Source: a virus
Taxonomy: Duplodnaviria; Caudoviricetes
Virus record (IMG/VR): IMGVR_UViG_3300028171_000090
Location: 159,017-223,016 of that record
DNA length: 64,000 bases
Direction: 5' to 3' (one strand)
Positions 745 to 64,000 of the stretch are shown in pieces; position 1 is the first letter of the stretch, and every line of letters begins with the position of its first letter. A model generated the notes under the pieces. It was not told the origin of the DNA. It saw only the letters and a list, made by a program, of their open reading frames with translations, and did not search any database. Made by a program: the position numbers and the translations under genes.

Positions 745-2085
745 GTGTCTGATATGGGGAAACTGAATGAACAGGTTGGCTTCATTAAAGACGCGATAAA
801 GCATAGACAGGAGCTAGACTTTACTAGCTATAGCCGATTCCTAGAATCGGCTCCTATCTTTATCACGTACTACAAACAGAATACAGAAGAATCTACGATG
901 GATTATGGTACACATAATACACAAGTATTTATTGGACAAGATTCTTCCATTCGTTATAACAGAATCAAAGAGGTTCCGTTATATGGTCTGAATATGACAC
1001 AGATAGATATATCTGAGAATGAAACAGGTACAACATCTTCTTTCGAATCAGAAGGGATTATGCTGCCTGGTACATTTAGTCCAATACCAAATGATTACTT
1101 CCAGATTGATTACATGGGTAAAGAGATTGTATTTAAAGTTACGAATGTCGTAGCAGGTACAATCAAATCCAATGAGTATGTCAAGATTGAATTTAAGTTC
1201 AATCAAATTCTGGAAGACCATGAGCAAGAAAAGCTAGACCGACAAGTAGTATCTGAGAATACATTAATCTTAGATAATGTCGGAACGGATAATAAAGCTA
1301 TAGTTAGCGATGATGCATACAAACGACTCGATACATTAAAGCGTTTGTATGAAAAATTATCTGGTGACTATATTGATCATTTTTTTGTATCTGAAGTGAA
1401 TTCTTTCATTGTCGAGTATCCCGTTGGGATAGCAGAAAGAAATGACCCCGCATACAATATCTATTTAACAAAGTTTATGATTCGTCATAACTTGTTTAGC
1501 TGTAGTGATAGCCGTGATACTTTATACTTGGATATCGAGGTAACACCTCAAAGAAAGTTCAAGTCAGACTACAATAATACAATCTTTAAGTCTGTAGAAG
1601 CGCGCTATAAGTATGATGTAGACAAGGTGTTGAACCACCAATTCTTCAATTTCATCAACGAACAGACAAGTATATTCTTTGAGCGTAGAACGGAGTATAT
1701 GTGTGTAGAATTGACTCCATATAAACTTCCATTCTATGGACCAATGTTAAGTTGGGAGATTGTAAAAGAATTAGCTGATGCTGATATTATCCCATATAAG
1801 ATGGAATACAACGTTGAGATACCTGAAGAGAACAAAGGTGAAGACCATTACTTCTCTTGCCAAATTGTTAGACCTTCTAAGCCAATCTATAACATGCAGT
1901 ATGAATTGATTCAGATTATCAAGAATCATTTAAATCATAAGAAGTCTAACTTAACAATAGACTATATGAAAACTCTAATGGAGTATGGTCAGATTAACTA
2001 TGACCCTGATACTTTTATCCTACTTCCATTAGCCCTATATATCATACAATTTGAGATGAACCAGATTCAACATAAAGAAATATAA
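745..2085 (+). CDS. Virion structural protein, possibly neck/head-closure (T4 gp14-like N-terminal half)
   Basis: 446 aa, GTG start with AGAGG RBS. Motifs ITYY..., VPLYG, PIPNDYFQI, VFKVTNV resemble neck-protein beta-barrels; recognised by eye only. Confidence 0.4.
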   Translation: MSDMGKLNEQVGFIKDAIKHRQELDFTSYSRFLESAPIFITYYKQNTEESTMDYGTHNTQVFIGQDSSIRYNRIKEVPLYGLNMTQIDISENETGTTSSFESEGIMLPGTFSPIPNDYFQIDYMGKEIVFKVTNVVAGTIKSNEYVKIEFKFNQILEDHEQEKLDRQVVSENTLILDNVGTDNKAIVSDDAYKRLDTLKRLYEKLSGDYIDHFFVSEVNSFIVEYPVGIAERNDPAYNIYLTKFMIRHNLFSCSDSRDTLYLDIEVTPQRKFKSDYNNTIFKSVEARYKYDVDKVLNHQFFNFINEQTSIFFERRTEYMCVELTPYKLPFYGPMLSWEIVKELADADIIPYKMEYNVEIPEENKGEDHYFSCQIVRPSKPIYNMQYELIQIIKNHLNHKKSNLTIDYMKTLMEYGQINYDPDTFILLPLALYIIQFEMNQIQHKEI

Positions 2086-7861: not shown

Positions 7862-9496
7862 GTGGCAAAAGCTAAACGTTGTCCTAACTGTACGAGCACG
7901 TACCCAGAAATTGATGATTTATATGAGCACATAGAAGATAAACATTCAGACGCAATTCCGAAGGGAATGTCTGCTGGTCAATACTTCTACTTTACAAAAT
8001 ATCACCGTAGAAGTGGTCAGTGTGTAGTATGCTCAAAAGAAACACCTTGGAATGATAGTACGAATAAACCGTACAGAATATGTAGTCCAATCTGTCGTAA
8101 AACATACCGTGAGAACTTCTTAAATAATATGAGACGAGTACACGGTAAAGACCATCTATTAGATGACCCTGAAGTACAGAAGAAGATGTTATCAAAACGT
8201 TCTATCTCAGGGGAGTACCAATGGTCAAATGGTGCTCGTAAGGGTTATGTCGGCTCTTACGAAAAAGACTTTTTACGTTTCCTAGATATCTTTATGGGAT
8301 TTGAACCAGATGATATCCATGCTCCAGCACCTCAGATTATTGAATATGAGTATGAAGGTAAAAAGCACTTCTATATTCCTGACTTCTACATCGAGAGTAT
8401 CAATACAATCGTAGAGATTAAAGATGGTGGAGATAATCCAAATACTCACCATAAGATTCAGGATGTGGATAAAGAGAAGGAGAAAGCAAAAGACGAAGCA
8501 TTATCTAAAACTGGTCAATACAATTACATCAAGATTGTAAATAAACAGTATGCTTCCTTCATCAAGTTCCTATTAGAATTACGTAATAGTGACCAAGATG
8601 GAAAACGACGAGAAGTATTTCATCCTGTCGTAATGATTAACGAGAATGTACAAGCGTTGCAAGAAAGCGTTGTAGCTCAAAAGGATTTATTCCTAGCAAT
8701 CGTAAAACAGAATGTGCCAGGATTATCTGAAGAAGAATGTGGATGGTCAATCTGGTTCTCATTCGATTGTACATTTGACACAGTATATAAATCGTATCCA
8801 ACTACTGATATGGTTGGAGATAAAACATATGCTTGTGCGAAATTTACTACGGTAGATAAGAGTGCTGTTATTGGTGATGCTAGTTTCAATATCATGAAAC
8901 TAAAACAACCAGCATCATTAGACACTCTTTATAAGAAAGTGCAGATGCATATGAATGAACCAATGTTCTATTCTACCGAAGGTGGGTCTATACCTGGATT
9001 AGATATCATTTGGTTATTCGATGATATGCAAGGTGGTCGCTGTTTTGACCATACCGAGAAAAACATTACAAGTTGCAGTCAATTGATTAATGAATTAAGT
9101 CCAGCGTTCCAGTATCTTATGACGGTACCGAACTTAAATACATTTGACTACAATAAGTTCTTGCAAGCAGAATGTTCTGTAATTTCTGAATCAGTCATGA
9201 ACATGAATATCGATGAGCTGTACGAGACCTTTATAGGTACACCTGAACAGACTCTATTGGAATCTGATTATGAAGCAATGACTGCACCTGCACCAGAGGA
9301 AGCAGATCACTACGATTCACGTATTGATGAATATGAAAACTATATGGATCATATCGGTAAAACTTCTGGTATGGAACACCTTCATCGTTTAGGTGCTAAA
9401 ATTAAGAATGAGTTCACTGGTTCTGACAATCAACGTGAAGCTCTTATAAGAAGATTGGCTCACCGTAAACAACAATTGGTGAAGGTTAAAAGTTAA
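7862..9496 (+). CDS. Zinc-finger + TnsA-like PD-(D/E)XK nuclease (head-completion nuclease-like) with long C-terminal extension
   Basis: CPNC...HIEDKH, CVVC...CSPIC, YIPDFYIESINTIVEIKDG. Late-type promoter AACAACTAATTA upstream. Confidence 0.65.
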   Translation: MAKAKRCPNCTSTYPEIDDLYEHIEDKHSDAIPKGMSAGQYFYFTKYHRRSGQCVVCSKETPWNDSTNKPYRICSPICRKTYRENFLNNMRRVHGKDHLLDDPEVQKKMLSKRSISGEYQWSNGARKGYVGSYEKDFLRFLDIFMGFEPDDIHAPAPQIIEYEYEGKKHFYIPDFYIESINTIVEIKDGGDNPNTHHKIQDVDKEKEKAKDEALSKTGQYNYIKIVNKQYASFIKFLLELRNSDQDGKRREVFHPVVMINENVQALQESVVAQKDLFLAIVKQNVPGLSEEECGWSIWFSFDCTFDTVYKSYPTTDMVGDKTYACAKFTTVDKSAVIGDASFNIMKLKQPASLDTLYKKVQMHMNEPMFYSTEGGSIPGLDIIWLFDDMQGGRCFDHTEKNITSCSQLINELSPAFQYLMTVPNLNTFDYNKFLQAECSVISESVMNMNIDELYETFIGTPEQTLLESDYEAMTAPAPEEADHYDSRIDEYENYMDHIGKTSGMEHLHRLGAKIKNEFTGSDNQREALIRRLAHRKQQLVKVKS

Positions 9497-9509
9497 CCCT
9501 ATAATCGGT

Positions 9510-9527
9510 TATACATTATATAGATGA
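9510..9527 (+). promoter_or_regulatory. Candidate early promoter TATACATTATATAGATGA
   Basis: Near-identical intergenic copies at 12690 and 51931. Confidence 0.6.
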
Positions 9528-9573
9528 TGAAAAACATCAATATACTATTTACATAACCCAGGGGGAATAGAAA

Positions 9574-9951
9574 ATGAAAACAATGATCTTAGTAGAACGT
9601 AAGCAAGAAGAGAAAAAAGAAGCAGCGTACACAGTGGCTACGCTAGAACAATTAGCAATGGTTGTACATCGTACAATGGATATCCGATTAGAGGCTTGGA
9701 GAGGTACTATTATCGGATTAGGAGTAGAAGAAGATTATGAAGCTGAAAAGCATATCGCTTTAGCAGAAATCCTACAAGGATTACAAAGCGTTAAAATACC
9801 TGAAAGATATATCTTTACAGCAGCGTCTTCATACGTTCGTAATAAATCGAACGAAGCGGCTGAAAGATTCTATAATGACTTTATTAAACATCATGTGGAA
9901 TTCGAGTGCCAAACAATTCCGTTACGAGTGTTTGGACCATTCCCATACTAA
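9574..9951 (+). CDS. Hypothetical protein
   Basis: 125 aa ORF with GGGGG RBS, followed by a terminator hairpin. Confidence 0.7.
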   Translation: MKTMILVERKQEEKKEAAYTVATLEQLAMVVHRTMDIRLEAWRGTIIGLGVEEDYEAEKHIALAEILQGLQSVKIPERYIFTAASSYVRNKSNEAAERFYNDFIKHHVEFECQTIPLRVFGPFPY

Positions 9952-23219: not shown

Positions 23220-24833
23220 TTACATTTTACCTAAGATTTGCATGATATTCTTAACTTCTCTAGCTTGGTTAGAGTTTTCTCTTTCTAGAGATGTGTAAGA
23301 GTATTGTTGGAAATCGGATTCTCCATCGTACATGAAGTATGCAATTTCAGATGCTGTATCAGCAACGACGAATGAGATTAAGAAATACTCACTCATTAAT
23401 TTACGTACAGTAGTCGTTGACATTAAATCAACTGAATGCTCGTTACGTATTTTATGCACTTCATCCATTGTAATAACAATTGTGGAGTTAGGTAATAATT
23501 GATTTTTTGTATTTAGTTTACGTAATAGACTAGAACGTTTGCTACGACGACGTAACACTGTCCACCATCTAGAATCGCTAAACTTACTATTTACATCCTG
23601 ACGGATGTTATTAATTGCGAATACAAAGTCTTTGAAGAACTCTGTTTCACCTGTAGACCAGCGTAGGAAGTTAAAGATAGCATTCCCACGAGTTACTCCA
23701 CGTACTAGGTTTTGTTCAATAGATTCAGACTTGATTGTATGGATGATTGTTTTAACTCCAACCATGTAATCCACAGCTTCTAAATCTCCTAGTTCATTAC
23801 GGAAGTATGTTTTAATATGAAGCATTGTTGGAACCATTTCATTTGCTTTCTTTGCATCGTTATCAGATAGGTTATCTTTTGGTACGATGTCATAAGAAGA
23901 CGTTGCAGTTGAGTTACGTCCCATTAATGCTTGCGTAGGAGTATCTTCATCAAATGTATGACCATCCTCAGATAAGATACGTTTGCCGTACGTATTGTAA
24001 CGGTTGTTCAATGTTGCACTTTCAGACATAACCGAATAGTTTTGCTTACGCGTTTTATCATTCAGTGTGTCTTCACGGAACCAAGGAGTATACTCTTTTA
24101 ATTGATCACGGTTCATGACAGCACATTCTTGAATGATTCTCTCACGGTTAATCTCTTTCATATTCTTCACATCAATAGGTGGTGTTAGAATATATTGATA
24201 CGTACCATTTGTTTGGTTACGTAACATAAATGCTTCTTGTAGCTTTGTTCCTTCATGCAGAATCATACCACTGAAACCTTGTAGTTTGTATACAGCACGG
24301 TTTGGATTCTCAGCATAGAACTCAGCTAGTAATTCATCGATAGATGGGTCTTCGTCATCTTCGTACTCGTCAGTTGCCACAATATCAAGATTATCTTCAT
24401 CTTTTGTTGCTTCCATTAACATAGCACGGAACTCTCTATCTAATTGTACAGCAGCGTTACGAGTCTCTACATCCATTTTAGGAAGTTTGAACTTTGGCTT
24501 TACTGTAACACTTTCATTGAATACGCTAGATACGCTTTGGTTCGGCATGTTTTGATGCAGACCGCGTAAGAATGCTTTTACATCTCGTGAATCTGTTACA
24601 GAATCGATAGATGTAATAACACGGATAAAGGAAACGAATTCTCGTTCTAACGCTTTACCCATCATCGTAGCTTCTTCTAAAGATAGTGATGCGGAACATA
24701 GTACAGGGAACTGTAAGATACCCTTTCTAGCTTCAGATGCTACTGAGCCTTTTGTGTTTACTTTGAATTTACCTTCAGACGCAGCAGATTTTGCATCACG
24801 GAAAATATCGTGAATGTCTCTTATGATAGTCAT
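23220..24833 (-). CDS. Virion structural protein (head, likely protease-processed)
   Basis: 537 aa, AAAGGAGG RBS, late promoter; multiple (F/L/M/I)-x-E sites in an acidic middle linker. Confidence 0.55.
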   Translation of the reverse strand: MTIIRDIHDIFRDAKSAASEGKFKVNTKGSVASEARKGILQFPVLCSASLSLEEATMMGKALEREFVSFIRVITSIDSVTDSRDVKAFLRGLHQNMPNQSVSSVFNESVTVKPKFKLPKMDVETRNAAVQLDREFRAMLMEATKDEDNLDIVATDEYEDDEDPSIDELLAEFYAENPNRAVYKLQGFSGMILHEGTKLQEAFMLRNQTNGTYQYILTPPIDVKNMKEINRERIIQECAVMNRDQLKEYTPWFREDTLNDKTRKQNYSVMSESATLNNRYNTYGKRILSEDGHTFDEDTPTQALMGRNSTATSSYDIVPKDNLSDNDAKKANEMVPTMLHIKTYFRNELGDLEAVDYMVGVKTIIHTIKSESIEQNLVRGVTRGNAIFNFLRWSTGETEFFKDFVFAINNIRQDVNSKFSDSRWWTVLRRRSKRSSLLRKLNTKNQLLPNSTIVITMDEVHKIRNEHSVDLMSTTTVRKLMSEYFLISFVVADTASEIAYFMYDGESDFQQYSYTSLERENSNQAREVKNIMQILGKM

Positions 24834-24938
24834 AAGTCACCCTCCTTTAAGAATTAATACAAAAAAATATTAATATCATGTTACAGTGTATAAAACGTAT
24901 ATGAATGCAGTTGCCTACATTCATATACGTCTACTATA

Positions 24939-25739
24939 TTACGCTACATATTTATCATTGAAATATGCCTTTACTACTTCTTTCTTATACATTGAATCCT
25001 CAGATAACTCATCTTCAATACGATGCATGATATCTTCTTTCGTAGCTGTTACTGCCAGTTTACTCATTTCAACAATTGTTGACATTTCTTCTATAATAGA
25101 TTTAATCATTTCTGGAATATCAACATCGTCTTTCAATTGCTTATTAACAGCCACACCACAATCTTTTAAGTATCCGATTGTACTACTAAATGATTGAGGC
25201 ATAATAAGATGAGCTTTTAATACAAGTGCCATTGTCATATCTTTCGGCTTTGCCTTCGTCAGGTTATTGAAGTTATACATTAAACCTTGACAAGCTTCAT
25301 CGAAATCATCTTCGTCCTCATCTGTATATATTTTAGTAAAGTCATATTTACCTAATGCGTCTTCATTTATCAATAATTCAATTACTCGAATGACATCATC
25401 TGTTTTATACATTCTCTTGAATTGGCTAATAATAACGTCTCTTCGAGTCGTTGTATCAGTATCCAATGATTGCATAACAACTGGTTTATCTTCCATTTCA
25501 TTCTCCTTCATAACCTCATCGATTACACCATCTAATCCTTTCGGAGCTAGTCCCTGTAACGATTTCAGATTACTCTTTCCATCTTCTCCTTCAAGAGAAA
25601 CTCTTTCAGATACATCCTTAGCATTCTTTGGCTTTTCCTCTTTTACCTTTTCTTCTTCTTTCTTTAGTTCTGGGTTGCGTGTAGCAACATCCTTTGCATT
25701 TCTAGTTCCTGTAGTTCCTGCATTTCTTCGCGTAGTCAT
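24939..25739 (-). CDS. Hypothetical acidic protein
   Basis: 266 aa, GGAGGA RBS, early-type motif at 25776-25793. Confidence 0.7.
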   Translation of the reverse strand: MTTRRNAGTTGTRNAKDVATRNPELKKEEEKVKEEKPKNAKDVSERVSLEGEDGKSNLKSLQGLAPKGLDGVIDEVMKENEMEDKPVVMQSLDTDTTTRRDVIISQFKRMYKTDDVIRVIELLINEDALGKYDFTKIYTDEDEDDFDEACQGLMYNFNNLTKAKPKDMTMALVLKAHLIMPQSFSSTIGYLKDCGVAVNKQLKDDVDIPEMIKSIIEEMSTIVEMSKLAVTATKEDIMHRIEDELSEDSMYKKEVVKAYFNDKYVA

Positions 25740-25868
25740 TTAAGTATCCTCCAATGAGATTTTATTTTTTGTTATTCATAAAGATAATATATATTTGTAA
25801 CATAGCCTAATACGTTTCTACGTTCCCAAAAAAATAAGAGAGCACATGTGAATCTTTATATCATACTT

Positions 25869-26129
25869 TCATCCTCGAAAGTATATGGACTCATCTAACC
25901 GAATGGCAACGTCTTTTGATTTGCGAACTTTCTTCTTCTTTTTCTTCTTCACTTTAAATGAATGATTATAATCATAAGAATAATTGCGTTTATTATCTAC
26001 AACCTTATGAGCTGTATTCGCTGCAAGTTCAACTGCAAATTGTACGTTGTCTGGATCACATCCTTTATCGGTTAGTGTCGAATAAGCGTAACCCGCTATT
26101 AAGTTAATTCCAATATTTAATAATGACAT
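25869..26129 (-). CDS. Small hypothetical protein with poly-Lys tract
   Basis: 86 aa, GGGGAG RBS. Confidence 0.6.
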   Translation of the reverse strand: MSLLNIGINLIAGYAYSTLTDKGCDPDNVQFAVELAANTAHKVVDNKRNYSYDYNHSFKVKKKKKKKVRKSKDVAIRLDESIYFRG

Positions 26130-26386
26130 AAGTAAACTCCCCCAGTATACATGATGTATGCTGGTGTGAATATAATCTATATTTAATCACACCAAACGCT
26201 TTCTATAATAAACTGTCTCATACCGAACCCTTGGGTTTATTACATGACGGCTATGACGAACAGGACTAGATAGTTGGCGGTGGATACAATTAGATATATT
26301 TTATACTCACATGTGTCTCACATGGATAATGTATACTTGAAAAAGGGGTTAACTATTATAGGATCATACAAAAAAAAGAAGAGGTA

Positions 26387-26695
26387 TTACACCTCTTCTC
26401 CCCCATGTCTTTGACGAAACCCTTCCCAGAACTCAATCATATCAATATCAGTAAACGATTTATTGATATTGAATAAAGGTTGAAATGCTTCCTTTATTCG
26501 CTTATCTTCCTTTCGGACTTCTCGCTTCTTTCTTGATGCTCTCATTCTAGCTTCCATGTAACCTCTAGACATTGGACGTGTTAACATGTGTATGCTCGGA
26601 TTTTGTCCGTCAGGATATTCCATAATACATACTCTTTGTACATCGTCCCCTTGTAACATATTATCACCTAGTTTTGCAAGTTTGTGTGTAGACAT
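26387..26695 (-). CDS. Hypothetical protein
   Basis: 102 aa, GGAGGGA RBS, early-type motif at 26728-26745. Confidence 0.7.
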   Translation of the reverse strand: MSTHKLAKLGDNMLQGDDVQRVCIMEYPDGQNPSIHMLTRPMSRGYMEARMRASRKKREVRKEDKRIKEAFQPLFNINKSFTDIDMIEFWEGFRQRHGGEEV

Positions 26696-26846
26696 TGATG
26701 TCCCTCCATAGTAATAGTTTTTAGTCTATCATAGAGATAATATGTATTTTAAATAACTGCTATTACGATAAGTATTATATAGTAGGTCTGACAGAATGTA
26801 TAGCCCGAACAGCTTTGTAATAACACGTATAGAGAGGAGGATATCT

Positions 26847-56009: not shown

Positions 56010-56241
56010 AAAAGTATTGCTCTCTATAAATCTCTCTAATTGCTGGGAACTCTCACTGAGACAATCAGCAGCGAAGCCTTTAAATAGGAACGTTCAACGA
56101 CTATTCCGAAAGGAAGTAGGACACAAGCGTGTTCGAAACGGGAGACACTCGTTAGAGTGAAGATATAGTCTAGTCTGCATGGTGACATGTAGAAGTTCAT
56201 AAGAGAACTGGTTCAGTGTAGCGAACTGAATTGAATATACG
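56010..56241 (+). mobile_element. Group I intron 1 (232 nt, ORF-less, IA2-like)
   Basis: 5' exon ends GGAGAGGGU and pairs with IGS GCUCUCU (U.G). P/Q elements AAUUGCUGGGAA and AAUCAGCAG, R element UCAACGACUA, P7.1/P7.2 hairpins, S element AAGAUAUAGUCU, terminal G. AGUAU pairs with exon 2 GUACU (P10). Confidence 0.9.
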
Positions 56242-56313
56242 GTACTAATAGAATTTTATATTAACTATGAAGATCGCATGGGAGTCGGCGATAAGTTGAC
56301 TTTCTTTACGGCT
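56242..56313 (+). CDS. RNAP beta exon 2 (72 nt micro-exon, VLIEFYINYEDRMGVGDKLTFFTA)
   Basis: In frame with exon 1; contains the conserved GDK motif. Confidence 0.88.
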
Positions 56314-57361
56314 GGGTAACAGGGTCCTTTATCTGGTGACAGATATCGAAAACTCCTTTAATTGCTGGGACATCTTACCGAGACAATCAGCAGCCAAGCA
56401 TTATCATGTATAATTCTATAACATTACAACACCTTTATAAGAGGTGAATGATTATGAGAAAAACTGAAATATTTAAACTAATTACATTACCTGATATAAA
56501 ACCTAGATATTGGGTTAGTAACATGGGAAGAGTTTATAATAGCAAATCTAAAAAGTATCTTAAAGGTAGTCCTGATAAAGATGGGTATATTAGGGTTAAT
56601 TTAACTAAATTTAATGGAAAAAAGAAAACTCTTAGAGTGCATCGATTAGTAGCTATTTATTTTATTAAAATTAAGAGACCTGATCAAGATCAAGTTAATC
56701 ATAAAGATGGTGTAGTTTCTAATAACGATCGTTCTAATTTAGAATGGTGTACTAATGAAGAGAATAAAGACCATTCTATTAGAACCGGGTTACGGTGGTA
56801 TCATAAAGGTGAAGATGTATCACATTCATTTTTTACTAATGATCAAGTGCATCTAATATGTAAGATGCTTGAAAAAGGCAACTCTTATAAACAAATAGCT
56901 AAAAAATTAGATTTAAAGTTTAATGAAAATTTAGTTAAACTATTATATACAATAAAAAGTGGTTCATCGTGGAATCATATATCAAAAGATTATAATATAC
57001 CTAAAAAATCTATGAATCAGGTATTTACTAAAGATGACATACACAGATTCTGTCAATTGATGGAACAAGGGTATGGTAATACTGAGATTGCTAAATTAAC
57101 TACGGGCGTATTAGATATTCCTAAAAATAAAATTATAGGAACTTTAAATCAGATACGTTTTAGAAGATGTCATAAAAATATTTCTAAAAATTATACATGG
57201 TAAATGAAGGTTCAACGACTATTCCGAAAGGAAGTAGGGTGCAAGCGCATTCGAAATGGGGAGCATCTCATAGAGATGAAGATATAGTCTAGTCTGCATG
57301 GTGACATGTAGAAGTTCATAAGAGAACTGGTTCAGTGTAGCGAACTGAATTGAATGTTTCG
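56314..57361 (+). mobile_element. Group I intron 2 (1048 nt) with HNH ORF in the P6 loop
   Basis: AAUUGCUGGGAC, AAUCAGCAG, GUUCAACGACUA, AAGAUAUAGUCU and a terminal G before TTA AAA GGT. Splicing restores GDKLTFFTA-LKGIV. Confidence 0.88.
56454..57203 (+). CDS. Intron-encoded NUMOD4-HNH homing endonuclease (I-HmuI-like)
   Basis: YWVSNMGRV (NUMOD4), VHRLVA..VNHKDG..NNDRSNLEWCTNEENKDH (HNH), two C-terminal HTH-like repeats. GAGGTG RBS and own AACACCTTTATA promoter (56428-56439). Confidence 0.92.
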   Translation: MRKTEIFKLITLPDIKPRYWVSNMGRVYNSKSKKYLKGSPDKDGYIRVNLTKFNGKKKTLRVHRLVAIYFIKIKRPDQDQVNHKDGVVSNNDRSNLEWCTNEENKDHSIRTGLRWYHKGEDVSHSFFTNDQVHLICKMLEKGNSYKQIAKKLDLKFNENLVKLLYTIKSGSSWNHISKDYNIPKKSMNQVFTKDDIHRFCQLMEQGYGNTEIAKLTTGVLDIPKNKIIGTLNQIRFRRCHKNISKNYTW

Positions 57362-57559
57362 TTAAAAGGTATCGTGTGTGAGGTAACTCCTCGCGGACAA
57401 GAGCCATTCAGTGAGTATAGACCAGATGAGGAAGTATCAGCGTTCTTATCTCCAATATCTATACTTGCCCGTATGACTGGTAGTGTTATGGTCAATATGG
57501 CGCTGAATAAGTTATTAATTGAATTGAAGCATCAATGTAAAGAAATTTACGAAAGCTAA
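57362..57559 (+). CDS. RNAP beta exon 3 (65 aa)
   Basis: LKGIVCEV...SPISILARMT corresponds to the beta KG..V...NP.S..SRM region. Confidence 0.88.
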   Translation, partial: LKGIVCEVTPRGQEPFSEYRPDEEVSAFLSPISILARMTGSVMVNMALNKLLIELKHQCKEIYES

Positions 57560-60208: not shown

Positions 60209-61909
60209 ATGAGTTTATTTAAGAAATTATTCGGATTAAATCCTGAGCCACAAAAAGAACCTGTAAAAGAGATTAAGGAGGATAAACTAGATTATAAAAA
60301 AGACTTTGATGAGTTCTTTGCTTATCTAGAGAAACCTTTTACTCCTGATGACACAATGGTTCTTAGAGATTTTATTTATAAAAATAGAACCTCAATAGAA
60401 GGTATTGGAAAAATTTCAATACATATGAAACCATTAGAGAAATTTATTAATGAAGCTACATTTATGGAATTGCTACGATTAACAATTCTAAACTTCTATA
60501 ATTTCCCTAATCGCAAACACTTTATTCTAGTAAAACTACAACGTAGTATTGCATTAAATGAGTGTGAAACATTAATGAATAGAGCTGCGGGTGCATACTT
60601 AGAAGCTTTAGATTTAGGTGATAACTTATTCTTTAGCAATAAAATGAGAATGACTGAAGACTATATCAAAGAACGTAATGCTCATACTAGTGAAAAATAC
60701 ACTACCGATGTACCGACTATACCTTCACATCAGAAAACATATGAAGAGAGTAAAAGAGGCAGGGAGCCAGAACATAAATTTATTGCAGACGTAGCAGATA
60801 AAGCTGTACGGGAAATGGATGCAAAGATAGTAAGAGAACTTCATCCAGGGACTCCTGAACACGATCAAATTATGGCTGATATTGCTGAAGGTAATCTAGT
60901 TCCAACTGCAATTAATTATCCTGATAGTGAAAACGTTAAACCCTATACTGGACCAGTAGAGTTAGATTTAGCTCGTACACATCCGGCTAAAGATTTAAAA
61001 GAATTGGAAAAAGAATTATTTAAGCAACCAGGTGCTTCATTTGTAGACCTGAAAGGTTTATCTGCAATTGAACTTCAAGAGATAATAGAAGCTAGTAAAA
61101 GAGCAATAAAATCTGTTGATGTGACAGTAGATTTACAAAATGAAGATTTATTAGGTGCACATAAAAAATTAGTAAGTGCATCAGCTACCGCTATGGTAGA
61201 CTATCAAATATTTAAAGCTTTAGATGGTAAAGAGCGTAAAGCTACTAAAGACCTTGCTAAGGATATTGATAAAAAATCCGTAGAAATGTTTGCGTCTACT
61301 GAGTCTGAAGCTGAAAAAGAAAATCCTAGAAGCCCTGGGTTTATAGATTCTACAGTCTATAAAGAATCAGGTATATTTGCACCTGTAGCAGAGTATGGAC
61401 CAGATGAGGAAACAAAAGAAATGAAATCGTCTGGCGCCATTCAAAACTACGTAGAAGAATCATTTGAAATTATTCCTCGTCCTACAATCAGTGCGATTGC
61501 TAGAACAATGAAAGAGGGATTAGAGAAGTATGGATACCGTAACTATATGGGAATCCCTAAAGAAGAACATATTGGACGAGCAATTCGCCATATGTATGCT
61601 TACCTAGATGGAGATACAACTGAGGAGCATTTAGCTCATGCTATCACACGTTTAGGGTTTGCAGTTGAAATGAAACACATTGAAGAACAAGAGGGTAGAC
61701 ATGAATTGTTCCCTCATCTAAAAGATGTGTTAAAGAAAGAAGAATCAAATTCAATTATAACAGATTATATCACTACACATAGTACAGCCCAAGTTTCTGA
61801 CATGACAGTGAGAGCTAAAGCTCAATCTATGTTTGATCTAGGTAAAGGTCAAAGTTTAGAGAAACTTCGTAACGATAGTGTAGAGAAGCTTCAAGGAGAT
61901 AGAGTATAG
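60209..61909 (+). CDS. Large protein with C-terminal DUF5664 (dATP/dGTP diphosphohydrolase-like) domain
   Basis: PRPTISAIARTMKEGLEKYGYRNYMGIP..AIRH..YLDG..EEHLAHA at about 61475-61680. Confidence 0.75.
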   Translation: MSLFKKLFGLNPEPQKEPVKEIKEDKLDYKKDFDEFFAYLEKPFTPDDTMVLRDFIYKNRTSIEGIGKISIHMKPLEKFINEATFMELLRLTILNFYNFPNRKHFILVKLQRSIALNECETLMNRAAGAYLEALDLGDNLFFSNKMRMTEDYIKERNAHTSEKYTTDVPTIPSHQKTYEESKRGREPEHKFIADVADKAVREMDAKIVRELHPGTPEHDQIMADIAEGNLVPTAINYPDSENVKPYTGPVELDLARTHPAKDLKELEKELFKQPGASFVDLKGLSAIELQEIIEASKRAIKSVDVTVDLQNEDLLGAHKKLVSASATAMVDYQIFKALDGKERKATKDLAKDIDKKSVEMFASTESEAEKENPRSPGFIDSTVYKESGIFAPVAEYGPDEETKEMKSSGAIQNYVEESFEIIPRPTISAIARTMKEGLEKYGYRNYMGIPKEEHIGRAIRHMYAYLDGDTTEEHLAHAITRLGFAVEMKHIEEQEGRHELFPHLKDVLKKEESNSIITDYITTHSTAQVSDMTVRAKAQSMFDLGKGQSLEKLRNDSVEKLQGDRV

Positions 61910-61993
61910 GACATATGTCCTATACTTTTCTTTATTATTATTAAAATTAATCTATTTTATAATAATAAGTTACTACACGTCTAACATAGTAAT

Positions 61994-62290
61994 GAGATAG
62001 ACCCACCAGAGAGACAGAGAGGCTAGGAGATTGTAATATTAATCTTCTACCTCTCTGGTGGGGTATCATCGGAGGCGGGTGGGAATAGATAAGTGTTACC
62101 CGAACCGAAGGGAAGGGGAACATGCACTAGAAGAAAGAAGTGCGGTCCTCCCCGAAAGGGGGAGGGCGCTTTAAAGTTAGAATAATAGACACGAGAGAGG
62201 GAGACGAAGCTCTGAGAGGTGAGAGGAGCGAGAGCCCCGGGAACCCGAAAGGGAGAGGAGGTTCCGCCGAGGAACTACAGCACTTTCTCT
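61994..62290 (+). ncRNA. Putative GC-rich structured non-coding RNA
   Basis: Promoter AACATAGTAATG (61983-61994). 12-bp stem CCCACCAGAGAG/CTCTCTGGTGGG, GAAA-capped hairpins near 62150 and 62244-62253, no ORF. Confidence 0.55.
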
Positions 62291-62338
62291 AAATACAGTC
62301 AAAATCTCTTAGATTTTATATAGTTTTACAATCTTTCT

Positions 62339-63982
62339 AACAGTGTATTAGGGTACTGGTAAAGGTCCCTATGCAAATTTATTACTTGAAAGAGAAATAG
62401 ATTCTATACAAACTAAAAACTTTCATTCCAACATTTTTAGTAAACCTTTTCAGAATCTATTATCTCTAGACTATGCATCCGACTATACCTTAATTGGTAT
62501 AGTCAATTTTATTTTAATATATAACTAACATATAATTACATAAGTGTCTATGTGTAAATTCTTGTGTGAAACGAATGTTATTATTAAACCCTTAATAAAT
62601 TTCATAGACTATGCCGAGTATAACCTCTCCCAGGTTATACTCATTATTTTTTAATATTATGCTAACATTTTACTAATCTAAACATCATTTGCTTCATAGC
62701 AAATTACCTCATAGATTATGCCGACCATCACTTCCCCTAGGAGTGATGGTTAATTATTTTTTATTATTACTATAACATAATAATAACCTTAATAGGATAA
62801 GATTACCCACATAATCTTATAACAATTGCTTACACAAACCTGTAAGACTATGCCGACTAATACCTCCGGGTATTAGTCATTTTATTTTTATACATAAGCA
62901 ACATTATTATAACCGTGATAACCTCAAATATTCATGGTCTTACTCGTGATATGAATTTTGTCATTTTATAAGTTTCTTAGCTTATGAGACTACGCTGGTC
63001 AAAACGAGGCATCAATTTTTCCAAATTGATTTGCTTTCCTTCCGTTGGGAATTACCAACTAAATTCCATATAAGGGTCCTGACTATGCACGAAGAAGCCA
63101 CCGTTTGGCTTCTTCACTATTTTACGTCATTTTATATTTTAATATAAAGATAACAAAGTATTAGGTTGCGTAACAATACTGGAGCGTAACCGAGACACAA
63201 GCTGGTATCTGTTGATTCATTCGAACGACGGTACTCCTGATATAATTTATTATGTATTTAAGACTATGCAGACCATACCTTCGGGTATGGTCACTATTAT
63301 TTTCTATCTTAGTAACATTATTATAAGACTTAGTTCTGTTTGTGTTTGTTGATATTTTTCAAATATCACGGAAAGAACTCCATTTATAGACTATGCTCCT
63401 TTCAAATTTTAATGTTTATTATTTTTGTAGTTTTAGGGAGACTATGAAGAGTACAACCTTAGCGGGTTGTACTCATTTTATTTTATTGTAATAACATATT
63501 ATTAGTGGACTAGCGCCACAGTGATTCTATTTGGTGTATTTAAGACTATGCCCTTCGTTTATAAAAGTACTTAGATGAAAAATACCAGTAGATTATGCAG
63601 AGTATAACCTTAACGGGTTATACTCAAATTTATTTTTAATATCGCTATAACATAATAGTATGAGAGTGAGTATCTCATATATTCAAAAGTGTTTATAGAC
63701 TAAGCCTATCGATTTCAATGATAAACTAAACCCTACTATTTATTTATCATTACAGAAGAACCCAGAGAGGTTCTTCCCTTTCTTTTGTCGTTTATGATAA
63801 AGTTTTACTAAGTAGGTAACATATTATTAGTTGATGTATGATGGTAACAAACGCGATACTTCATTTCCTTTTGAATCTAGACTACGTGAAGATTTTTACC
63901 TAACTGAATGATGATTACTACTACTTTTTTACACATAAAATCCATCACCAACTACTGAGTATAACCTTAACGGGTTATACTC
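62339..63982 (+). ncRNA. Tandem array of >=10 small-RNA transcription units sharing an AGACTATGC motif
   Basis: 10 AACA-N6-TA promoters, 13 AGACTATGC-like motifs and 10 terminator hairpins with T tails, in repeating order. No ORFs on +. Confidence 0.8.
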
Positions 63983-64000
63983 CTTTATTTTATTTTTTAC

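What the first reader, a model, noticed from the sequence alone, without database searches (positions are those of the whole stretch)
62339..64000. Array of >=10 self-contained small-RNA cassettes: promoter - variable segment - AGACTATGC - terminator
Seen: AACA-N6-TA boxes start at 62339, 62527, 62664, 62774, 62900, 63152, 63314, 63493, 63649 and 63818. AGACTATGC or a 1-2 nt variant occurs at 62468, 62606, 62713, 62845, 62987, 63080, 63261, 63388, 63439, 63543, 63590, 63697 and 63879. Hairpins with T tails occur at 62481, 62616, 62723, 62855, 63091, 63271, 63449, 63600, 63755 and 63957. Units recur every ~110-250 nt; the segments between are unrelated to each other, and the array reaches the window edge. 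It is not a CRISPR array (9-nt repeat, variable spacer length, a promoter and terminator per unit). Inference: a library of short late RNAs with a constant 3' handle for a shared protein. Candidates are a reverse transcriptase priming at the handle and copying the variable part, an RNA-guided effector, or an anti-defence decoy system. No such effector is visible in this window.
Basis: partly seen in the sequence, partly recalled or inferred. Interest (0 to 1): 0.93.

Follow-up and report, generated by a model that had tools for sequence, protein, structure and literature searches.

The report
Jumbo-phage arrays of small-RNA genes
An uncultured soil jumbo phage carries two protein-free arrays of about 17 mini-genes for small RNAs, each with its own late promoter and terminator and a shared 9-letter tag; relatives keep the arrays but use a different tag, so something specific probably reads it, though what it does is unknown.

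Summary
The window is the end of a 223-kb phage contig. A second array (six promoters, ten motifs) lies on the minus strand at contig 26.8-28.2 kb.

AGACTATGC (up to 1 mismatch) precedes 8 of 15 array terminators and none of 183 terminator-like hairpins elsewhere.

Both arrays are syntenic in uncultured relatives. In the close clade the orthologous bodies are 76-94% identical, against 64% at four-fold sites, and show compensatory helix changes. A more distant clade keeps the grammar, but all copies in both arrays read TTACTACA(G/T).

This concerted switch points to a co-evolving reader of the tag. My best reading is a battery of stable late small RNAs whose tag marks the 3' boundary for a shared, unidentified protein (processing or binding).

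No reverse transcriptase or known RNA-binding or RNase family was found in the contig or beside the relatives' array, and transcription is not shown.

Rivals are a DNA-level nickase site (tf/LUZ24 nick-site likeness) and PeSL-like regulatory cassettes.

This scan has noted ORF-free small-RNA cassette arrays in other phages before.

The parts
61970..61979 (+). Motif-like copy TTACTACACG, 3 nt upstream of the U0 promoter. Conserved in relatives at the same place (TTACTATGCG, TTACTATACG, TTACTACACACG).
61983..62325 (+). Unit U0. Promoter AACATAGTAATG (61983-61994). G+C- and purine-rich structured RNA of about 330 nt. Terminal hairpin GGTTCC...GGAAC followed by TACAGC (AACTACAGC at 62273-62281). 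Weak A+T-rich hairpin 62300-62318.
   Evidence: Conserved in both relative clades. 15 of 65 predicted pairs show double compensatory changes. No Rfam family. Single copy in the contig and not found in AR9 or LPJP1.
62339..62513 (+). Unit U1. Promoter 62339-62350, body, motif AGACTATGC 62468-62476, terminator hairpin 62480-62505 plus T-run.
   Evidence: Ortholog in L075/L076/L106 with an extra motif-bounded segment. Body fold z -2.7.
62527..62652 (+). Unit U2. Promoter 62527-62538, motif 62606-62614, hairpin 62615-62643.
62664..62760 (+). Unit U3. Promoter 62664-62675, motif AGATTATGC 62713-62721, hairpin 62723-62751.
   Evidence: Body fold z -4.9.
62774..62888 (+). Unit U4. Promoter 62774-62785, motif 62845-62853, hairpin 62854-62879.
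   Evidence: Body 94% identical to the L106 ortholog.
62900..63125 (+). Unit U5, two segments. Promoter 62900-62911, motif AGACTACGC 62987-62995, motif TGACTATGC 63080-63088, hairpin 63090-63116.
   Evidence: Body 92% identical to the ortholog; its first ~120 nt are nearly identical. An internal hairpin is replaced by a different hairpin.
63152..63302 (+). Unit U6. Promoter 63152-63163, motif 63261-63269, hairpin 63270-63293.
   Evidence: Body 91% identical, with the helix CUGUUG/CGACGG kept as CUGUUG/CGGCAG in L106.
63314..63485 (+). Unit U7, two segments. Promoter 63314-63325, motifs 63388-63396 and 63439-63447, hairpin 63447-63476.
63493..63635 (+). Unit U8, two segments. Promoter 63493-63504, motifs 63543-63551 and 63590-63598, hairpin 63599-63626.
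   Evidence: A near copy of its motif+hairpin lies on another 10-kb contig of run X2 at phage-like depth.
63649..63786 (+). Unit U9. Promoter 63649-63660, motif AGACTAAGC 63697-63705, hairpin 63754-63777 (48 nt after the motif).
63818..63992 (+). Unit U10. Promoter 63818-63829, motif variant AGACTACGT 63879-63887, hairpin 63956-63983. The contig ends at 64000.
   Evidence: A Logan contig of run X2 ends at the same base.

Best explanation
The region is one of two arrays of genes for small, stable, non-coding RNAs made late in infection.

Each unit is read from its own AR9-type late promoter (AACA-N6-TA, presumably used by the phage's non-virion RNA polymerase). It gives a unique, often hairpin-rich body of 40-170 nt and stops at an intrinsic terminator.

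The motif AGACUAYGC (UUACUACA(G/U) in a sister clade) marks the 3' boundary of every body segment. It usually sits 0-4 nt before the terminator hairpin, and sometimes lies between two body segments of one transcript.

I infer that the motif is read on the RNA by one shared, phage-clade-specific factor, most likely a protein. That factor would either cut there (3'-end maturation, splitting two-segment transcripts) or bind the motif plus the hairpin base as a handle.

The terminator-promoter junctions between units also act as recombination joints at which segments and whole genes are gained and lost.

Shown: the anatomy, restriction of the motif to the arrays, conservation, purifying selection with compensatory changes, and the concerted motif switch.

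Inferred: transcription itself, late timing, RNA-level reading of the motif, and what the RNAs do.
For: 1. Grammar. There are ten units in the window and a second array of six promoters and ten motifs on the opposite strand. All elements are co-oriented.

2. Promoter. The same AACA-N6-TA box sits 20-40 nt upstream of SD+ATG of many genes of this phage. It is the experimentally defined late promoter of the related phage AR9 (PMC5312081). The phage encodes multisubunit RNAP subunits.

3. Motif specificity. It precedes 8 of 15 terminators inside the arrays and 0 of 183 outside. Elsewhere it occurs at background frequency.

4. Conservation. Both arrays are syntenic in relatives.

5. Selection. Orthologous bodies are 76-94% identical, against 64% at four-fold sites of the neighbouring RNAP gene. 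Hairpins are kept through double changes.

6. Concerted switch. AGACTATGC occurs 12+10 times (G000) and 8+4 times (close clade), and 0 times in clade B. TTACTACA occurs 22, 21 and 7 times in clade B arrays.

7. Variation inside clade A is mostly C/U at motif positions 4 and 7.

8. Six of 12 bodies fold better than shuffles, z -1.9 or lower. Most start with a stem-loop within 1-3 nt of the predicted start, a known stabiliser of Bacillus RNAs (my own knowledge).
Against: - No transcript ends or levels could be read. The RNA-library contigs cover the whole 18 kb evenly and could be DNA carry-over.
- No candidate reader protein was found. Hfq, ProQ, PemK, RegB, RNase III and RVT_1 are all absent from the contig.
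- Predicted accessibility of the motif is mixed, with unpaired probability 0.12-0.70.
- One conserved motif copy lies just upstream of the U0 promoter, outside any predicted small RNA.
- Half of the bodies are not more structured than shuffles.
- The motif resembles a known DNA nick-site consensus.
Confidence: 0.5

Rival explanations
1. The motif acts on DNA, not RNA. It would be the recognition site of a phage site- and strand-specific nicking endonuclease or another DNA-binding protein, as with the localized nicks of phages T5, phiKMV and tf/LUZ24. The arrays would be clusters of such sites on the non-template strand.
For: The nick consensus of phage tf and LUZ24-like phages is 5'-TACT/RTGMC-3' (TACTATGAC in LUZ24/PaP3). 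It is strand-specific and thought to co-evolve with its nickase (PMC3517423). G000's GACTATGC(M) shares ACTATG with it, and clade B's TACTACAGC shares TACTA and the same purine/pyrimidine pattern. The concerted switch fits a co-evolving enzyme. A motif copy lies upstream of the U0 promoter, outside a small RNA. A 223-aa gene right of the array in clade B has weak language-model likeness to HNH and T5-nickase clusters, which is a lead only.
Against: Known nick sites are spread along one strand of the whole genome. Here the sites are packed into two ORF-free arrays on opposite strands and follow local transcription. They hold a fixed place 0-4 nt before terminator hairpins. No HNH (Pfam) match was found in the contig, and the 223-aa protein has no Pfam hit. 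The conserved bodies and hairpins are not explained by nick sites.
Confidence: 0.12
2. The arrays are hyperplastic regions built from mobile terminator+promoter cassettes, a late-promoter analogue of the PeSLs of T4-type phages. The bodies would be leftovers of lost small genes or spacer DNA. Any RNAs made would be by-products, and the motif would be merely part of the duplicated cassette.
For: The repeated part is a composite of motif, hairpin, T-run, about 12 nt and the promoter, with conserved spacing. Between relatives, whole motif-bounded segments come and go. Different genes are inserted at the junction before U0 in L075 and L114. PeSLs are described as doing exactly this (PMC2839356, PMC4122927).
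Against: The bodies are more conserved than four-fold sites, and U5 more than the RNAP coding sequence. Their helices are kept by compensatory changes. There are no ORF remnants. The hairpin sequences differ between units while the 9-mer is kept, and the 9-mer is replaced in all copies at once in clade B. Passive duplication does not predict that.
Confidence: 0.15
3. The RNAs would be templates or guides for an effector: a reverse transcriptase priming at the handle, or an RNA-guided nuclease using the variable part as guide.
For: The layout is constant tag plus variable part. Bodies turn over quickly between clades (not alignable by blastn in clade B).
Against: No RVT_1 match in the contig. 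No RT or nuclease family among eight genes right of the array in clade B, only RNase H. The bodies have no complementary targets in the phage's own genome beyond chance and no match in phage records. Body lengths are irregular and many bodies are internally folded, unlike guides.
Confidence: 0.04
4. The RNAs are decoys. They would be abundant stable RNAs that display the cleavage or binding site of a host sequence-specific endoribonuclease (a toxin-antitoxin or abortive-infection RNase) and soak it up late in infection. The tag would differ between clades because the hosts' enzymes differ.
For: The tag is clade-specific. Clade B's UUACUACAU contains UUACU and UACAU, which I recall as the sites of Kid/PemK and of Bacillus/Staphylococcus MazF. 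This is my own knowledge and was not checked here. The RNAs look built for stability.
Against: The clade A tag matches no RNase site that I know. The phage's own genes do not avoid the tag. The unique, conserved bodies are not needed for a sponge. The host is unknown.
Confidence: 0.1

Closest known systems
Phage stable small-RNA and tRNA gene clusters (T4 tRNA region with RNAs C and D; T5; tRNA cluster of Listeria jumbo phage LPJP1)
   Same: A compact ORF-free row of short RNA genes in a large lytic phage. In the distant relative LPJP1, four tRNA genes lie in an ORF-free stretch that also holds AACA-N6-TA boxes. In AR9 the single tRNA gene is late (PMC5312081).
   Different: There are no tRNAs at all in this contig. 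Every unit has its own promoter and terminator. A shared 9-nt tag sits at the 3' boundary. No Rfam family matches.
PeSL cassettes of T4-type phages (promoter-early stem-loop; PMC2839356, PMC4122927)
   Same: A composite terminator stem-loop plus promoter is repeated many times in a plastic region. Relatives differ by gain and loss of what lies between the cassettes.
   Different: PeSLs flank small protein genes and carry host sigma-70 early promoters. Here the cassettes carry the phage's late promoter, flank non-coding conserved bodies, and include an extra sequence tag that is not part of the hairpin.
CRISPR arrays and solitary repeat units (RNA anti-CRISPRs)
   Same: Constant and variable parts alternate, and segments are gained and lost between strains.
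   Different: The constant element is 9 nt, not 23-55. The variable parts are 40-170 nt and irregular. Each unit has a promoter and a terminator. There are no cas genes and no spacer-like matches.
Localized nick sites of phages tf/LUZ24 (5'-TACT/RTGMC-3'; PMC3517423)
   Same: A strand-specific 9-mer with an ACTATG/TACTA core that differs between related phages.
   Different: Those sites are scattered over one strand of the genome, inside genes as well. Here they are confined to two arrays, follow the direction of transcription and abut terminator hairpins. Nicks were not tested.
Type III toxin-antitoxin ToxI-like repeat RNAs
   Same: A multi-unit RNA is cut at a short sequence by a dedicated endoribonuclease.
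   Different: ToxI is a tandem array of identical 34-36-nt repeats next to a toxN gene. Here the bodies are unique and toxN was not looked for.

Membership tests
CRISPR array | Direct repeats of about 23-55 nt with regular spacing and spacers of uniform length | tested here: not met
   The constant element is 9 nt. Motif-to-motif distances are 47-182 nt.
CRISPR array | One leader promoter for the whole array; cas genes nearby | tested here: not met
   Each unit has its own promoter and terminator. The neighbouring genes scanned with PHROGs or Pfam gave no Cas family.
PeSL (T4-type promoter-early stem-loop cassettes) | Composite motif of a terminator stem-loop directly followed by a promoter, repeated in a plastic region | tested here: met
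   Hairpin, T-run, about 12 nt, then TAACA-N6-TA recurs at every junction. Relatives differ by indels of whole segments.
PeSL (T4-type promoter-early stem-loop cassettes) | Cassettes flank small protein-coding ORFs and carry host-type early promoters | tested here: not met
   No ORF of 60 aa or more lies between the cassettes. The promoter is the AR9-type late box.
Phage tRNA gene cluster | Units fold as tRNAs | tested here: not met
   ARAGORN finds 0 tRNA or tmRNA genes in the window and in the whole contig.
Retron or other RT-linked ncRNA | A reverse transcriptase gene beside the ncRNA | tested here: not met
   No RVT_1 match in the 223-kb contig. None among the genes right of the array in relatives. 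About 10% of the genome is missing.
Any Rfam family | Covariance-model match at or near the gathering score | tested here: not met
   The best matches in the arrays score far below the gathering score, E 1.1 or more.
Site-specific nick sites (tf/LUZ24 type) | Consensus 5'-TACT/RTGMC-3' | tested here: inconclusive
   GACTATGC(M) and TACTACAGC share the ACTA(Y)(R) core but differ at 1-3 positions.
Site-specific nick sites (tf/LUZ24 type) | Sites on one DNA strand only, spread along the genome; physical nicks in virion DNA | tested here: not met
   The sites cluster in two arrays on opposite strands. The presence of nicks is not testable with these tools.
Type III TA antitoxin RNA (ToxI-like) | Tandem identical repeats of about 34-36 nt next to a ToxN-family gene | tested here: not met
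   The bodies are unrelated to each other. No tandem repeat is visible in the sequence read. A toxN gene was not searched for.

The most novel reading that the evidence does not exclude
The arrays are the RNA half of an undescribed phage ribonucleoprotein system. It would be a library of at least 17 stable late small RNAs plus one large structured RNA, each carrying a clade-specific 9-10-nt handle. An unknown co-evolving phage protein would read that handle and use the unique bodies as guides, decoys or adaptors against host functions.
Probability: 0.2. Interest if true: 0.85.

Novelty: new variant of a known kind. Interest (0 to 1): 0.66.

Why it matters
Jumbo phages of the AR9/phiKZ type run their own transcription, yet almost nothing is known about non-coding RNAs made by their RNA polymerases.

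About 3.5 kb of this phage, roughly 1.6% of the genome, is devoted to some 17 promoter-to-terminator RNA mini-genes under purifying selection. All of them carry a short tag that is swapped in concert in a sister clade. That is the signature of a specific reader and is not described for any phage RNA cluster I could find.

It would also give a handle on similar ORF-free 'mini-cassette' arrays that this scan has noted in unrelated phages.

If the tag instead turns out to be a nick site, it would link the long-unexplained localized nicks of phage DNA to transcription units.

Tried and rejected
1. Exact two-motif pattern scan of IMG/VR. It gave 62 loci, about the number expected by chance. The dense ones are tandem repeats in coding DNA or iterons, unrelated to this array.

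2. Nucleotide searches of both arrays against 50,697 phage records, in near and distant modes. No match.

3. Protein-pattern search with the 566-aa neighbour in IMG/VR found nothing. The RNAP beta search found only distant kin at 35-40% identity.

4. AR9 and LPJP1 whole genomes. No motif cluster and no promoter-dense ORF-free array; AR9's ORF-free stretches have at most 2 promoter boxes.

5. Antisense targets of the unit RNAs in the phage's own genome by blastn-short. The best hits (34.2 bits or less) are within the range of shuffled controls, up to 38.2 bits.

6. A duplex-energy scan against all translation-initiation regions timed out and was dropped.

7. Laying contigs of four soil metatranscriptome runs. 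All 18 kb are covered, with contigs up to 242 kb, so the libraries may hold phage DNA. No ends, strand or level can be read. Depth differences between bins and one contig ending at the last base of the U3 motif (62721) are not evidence.

8. A complement of the tag inside U0, as for a tracrRNA-like partner. Clade B has GUAGUAGG at one place, but the aligned place in clade A does not match its tag, so this was rejected.

9. Known reader families in the contig. RVT_1, ProQ/FinO, Hfq, PemK/MazF, RNase III and HNH (Pfam) gave no match. The RegB search was uninformative because its control did not ring. PF26848 is not in the library.

10. U0 pattern scans of viral, metagenome and genome collections found only this clade.

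12. Weak Rfam hit RAGATH-27 on the minus strand (24 bits against a gathering score of 76), taken as chance.
Full report
WHAT AND WHERE

The window is the last 64 kb of a 223,016-bp linear IMG/VR phage contig, about 90% complete. The phage is a jumbo phage with multisubunit RNA polymerases (PHROG matches to RNAP beta subunits). It is distantly related to Bacillus phages AR9/PBS1, Staphylococcus jumbo phages and Listeria phage LPJP1, with 30-41% protein identity over RNAP beta. Neither array matches any of 50,697 deposited phage genomes at the nucleotide level. The DNA is held by about 20 soil runs, 14 of them labelled metatranscriptomes.

CHECK OF THE OBSERVATION

Ten units run from 62339 to 63992. 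Each has:
- an AACA-N6-TA box;
- a unique body;
- one or two copies of AGACTATGC, or a 1-2-nt variant;
- a 9-12-bp G+C-containing hairpin followed by a T-run.

Twelve of the window's 25 matches to the motif (up to 1 mismatch) lie here, all on the + strand. Shuffles of the whole window gave a mean of 13.5 and a maximum of 22. The array stretch has 12 promoter boxes on the + strand and 1 on the - strand. No ORF of 60 aa or more is present, there is no tRNA and no Rfam family matches. The bodies share nothing with each other but the motif.

1. The array starts earlier. An AACA-N6-TG box at 61983 precedes a purine- and G+C-rich RNA of about 330 nt (U0). Its helices are supported by compensatory changes in relatives: 15 of 65 predicted pairs change on both sides.

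2. There is a second array on the minus strand at contig 26.8-28.2 kb. It has six promoters and ten motif copies, and lies between late-looking small genes and a convergent polyphosphate-kinase gene. An earlier first-stage note on this genome had flagged it.

3. Single units of the same grammar occur elsewhere. One is clear, at contig 114326-114440 (+). Another is likely, at about 1300-1370 (-).

4. The repeated part is really a composite of tag, hairpin, T-run, about 12 nt and the next promoter. Only the tag and the promoter have a fixed sequence.

5. The array reaches the window edge because assemblies break in it. The G000 contig, a Logan contig of run X2, and the contigs of three relatives at array 1 and two at array 2 all end inside an array. 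Run X2 also holds a near copy of the U8 tag+hairpin on a separate 10-kb contig at the phage's depth, presumably from the missing part of the genome.

IS THE PROMOTER REAL?

The same box, often as TAACAT(A/T)nTA, sits 20-40 nt upstream of SD+ATG of many genes of this phage. AACA-(6N)-TA/G, with the last base as the start site, is the experimentally mapped late promoter of AR9, attributed to its non-virion RNAP (PMC5312081). Its use here is an inference from homology.

IS THE TAG JUST PART OF TERMINATORS?

No. A simple scan found 183 terminator-like hairpins outside the arrays, and none has the tag within 16 nt upstream. Inside the arrays 8 of 15 do. Outside the arrays the 7- and 8-mers of the tag occur at Markov-expected frequency, neither enriched nor avoided.

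RELATIVES

Homologues of the 566-aa gene left of the array (Pfam dGTP_diPhyd_N) led to syntenic contigs.

Close clade (L075, L076, L106):
- RNAP beta DNA is 85% identical and four-fold sites are 64% identical.
- It has U0 and orthologues of U1-U6 with the same tag.
- Body identities in aligned columns are 83, 76, 86, 94, 92 and 91% for U1-U6. The first ~120 nt of U5 are almost invariant. The bodies therefore evolve more slowly than silent sites.
- Helices are kept through changes. In U6, CUGUUG/CGACGG becomes CUGUUG/CGGCAG. In U5 an internal hairpin is replaced by a different one. In U1 the 5' stem AGGG/CCCU becomes AGGCU/AGCCU.
- Whole tag-bounded segments are present or absent in U1 and U3.
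- Different genes are inserted at the junction before U0 in L075 and in a strain variant, L114.

Distant clade (L077/L078, L104/L105, L116):
- RNAP beta DNA is 78% identical.
- A 2.9-kb array sits at the same place with 16-17 promoters, U0 and the same grammar.
- The bodies are no longer alignable, and the tag reads (Y)TTACTACA(G/T)(C/T).

Array 2 is likewise conserved next to the polyphosphate-kinase gene, and its tag follows the clade. Counts on the sense strand:
- AGACTATGC (up to 1 mismatch): 12 and 10 (G000), 8 and 4 (close clade), 0, 0 and 0 (clade B).
- TTACTACA (up to 1 mismatch): 22, 21 and 7 in clade B.

So about 30 dispersed copies changed together. The shared core is ACTAY.

WHAT THIS MEANS

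The units are conserved above the neutral level. Many are structured: six of 12 bodies have fold z of -1.9 or lower. Most begin with a stem-loop next to the predicted start. They are therefore best read as genes for stable small RNAs, not as junk between regulatory cassettes.

The tag is specific to these RNAs. It marks the 3' edge of each body segment, before the terminator or between two segments. It was replaced in concert in a sister clade. That is what is expected if one trans-acting reader with an evolving specificity recognises it. Within clade A the commonest variants are C/U changes at positions 4 and 7.

I therefore commit to a battery of late small RNAs whose tag is read on the RNA by a shared phage-specific factor, either for 3'-end processing or as a binding handle together with the base of the hairpin (confidence about 0.5). 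What the RNAs do afterwards is open. I found no self-targets, and the host is unknown.

WHAT ARGUES AGAINST THIS, AND THE RIVALS

- Transcription is not demonstrated. The 'RNA' runs are held as contigs that cover all 18 kb laid, with contigs up to 242 kb. DNA carry-over cannot be excluded, and ends or levels cannot be read.
- No reader protein was identified. RVT_1, ProQ, Hfq, PemK, RNase III and HNH are absent from the contig. The genes right of the array in clade B are unknowns plus an RNase H.
- A real rival is a DNA-level function. The nick sites of phage tf and LUZ24-like phages have the strand-specific consensus TACT/RTGMC (TACTATGAC), thought to co-evolve with the nickase (PMC3517423). 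This is close to GACTATGC(M) and TACTACAGC. One tag copy sits just upstream of the U0 promoter. A 223-aa neighbour in clade B has weak HNH/T5-nickase-like features. Against it: the clustering in two arrays on opposite strands, the fixed place before terminators, and the conserved bodies.
- The PeSL-like reading (PMC2839356, PMC4122927) explains the plasticity but not the selection on the bodies or the concerted tag switch. I think both are true: the junctions do act as recombination joints.
- The reverse-transcriptase and guide readings have no support.
- A decoy for a sequence-specific host RNase remains possible but untested.

COMPARISON AND NOVELTY

The closest known things are phage tRNA and stable-RNA clusters and PeSL cassettes. 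Membership of CRISPR, retron, ToxI, tRNA-cluster or any Rfam family fails on defining features (see the membership table).

This scan has noted ORF-free promoter-to-terminator mini-cassette arrays in other, unrelated phages, so the general architecture recurs. The new elements here are the shared boundary tag, its concerted switch between clades, the two co-evolving arrays and the leading large structured RNA.

I rate it a new variant of a known kind, with about one chance in five that it is the RNA half of an undescribed RNP system.

Noticed in passing
window 61983-62325: U0 is a conserved G+C- and purine-rich structured RNA of about 330 nt with GNRA-type loops, behind a late-type promoter at the head of the array. 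It has covariation support, no Rfam family and a single copy. It was found only in this phage clade in viral, metagenome and genome collections.
   Followed up: partly
window 56010-57362: Group I intron sequence (two Rfam Intron_gpI matches, 98 and 41 bits) with an HNH homing-endonuclease ORF (56448-57203) interrupts the RNAP beta gene. The relatives L075, L076 and L077 lack the insert. An RNA-library contig joins 56009 to 57365, which could be the spliced RNA or an intron-less strain.
   Followed up: partly
G000 contig 24585-26783 (+), next to array 2: The phage encodes a full-length polyphosphate kinase (PPK1 domains on the clade B orthologue). It is convergent with the second small-RNA array and shares a bidirectional terminator with it.
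   Followed up: no
G000 contig 114326-114440 (+) and about 1300-1370 (-): Solitary units with the same grammar lie outside the arrays: AACA-N6-TA, a short body with a 5' hairpin, AGACTATGG or AGACTACGC, then a hairpin.
   Followed up: partly
junction at window about 61940; L075:11456-12283; L114:107-775: Strain and clade variants carry different extra genes, each with its own AACA-N6-TA box, inserted between the terminator of the 566-aa gene and U0. Loose ends in runs X2 and X7 mark the same junction, so it looks like a hot spot for cassette insertion.
   Followed up: partly
window 60209-61909: The 566-aa protein left of the array carries a dGTP_diPhyd_N (PF18909) domain in its C-terminal third. 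Its N-terminal two thirds are poorly conserved even in close relatives (74% identity over 37-39% of the length).
   Followed up: no
LPJP1 (MZ422438.1) 128100-128740: In the distant relative LPJP1, four tRNA genes (Tyr, Ser, Asn, Met) lie in an ORF-free stretch that also holds AACA-N6-TA boxes. This shows that this promoter type drives RNA genes in the group. G000 has no tRNA gene.
   Followed up: partly
run X2, 10,096-nt contig (record 23): A near copy of the U8 tag+hairpin (window 63590-63626, 3 differences) sits in other flanks at the same depth as the phage. It is probably a further unit in the unassembled ~10% of the genome.
   Followed up: no
L077:16886-17557 (clade B, second gene right of the array); paralogue in G000 contig 9219-9620 (-): This 223-aa protein of PHROG 12252 has no Pfam hit. 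It shows weak language-model and fold likeness to HNH endonucleases and to T5 nicking-endonuclease clusters. It is a lead for the nick-site rival only.
   Followed up: partly
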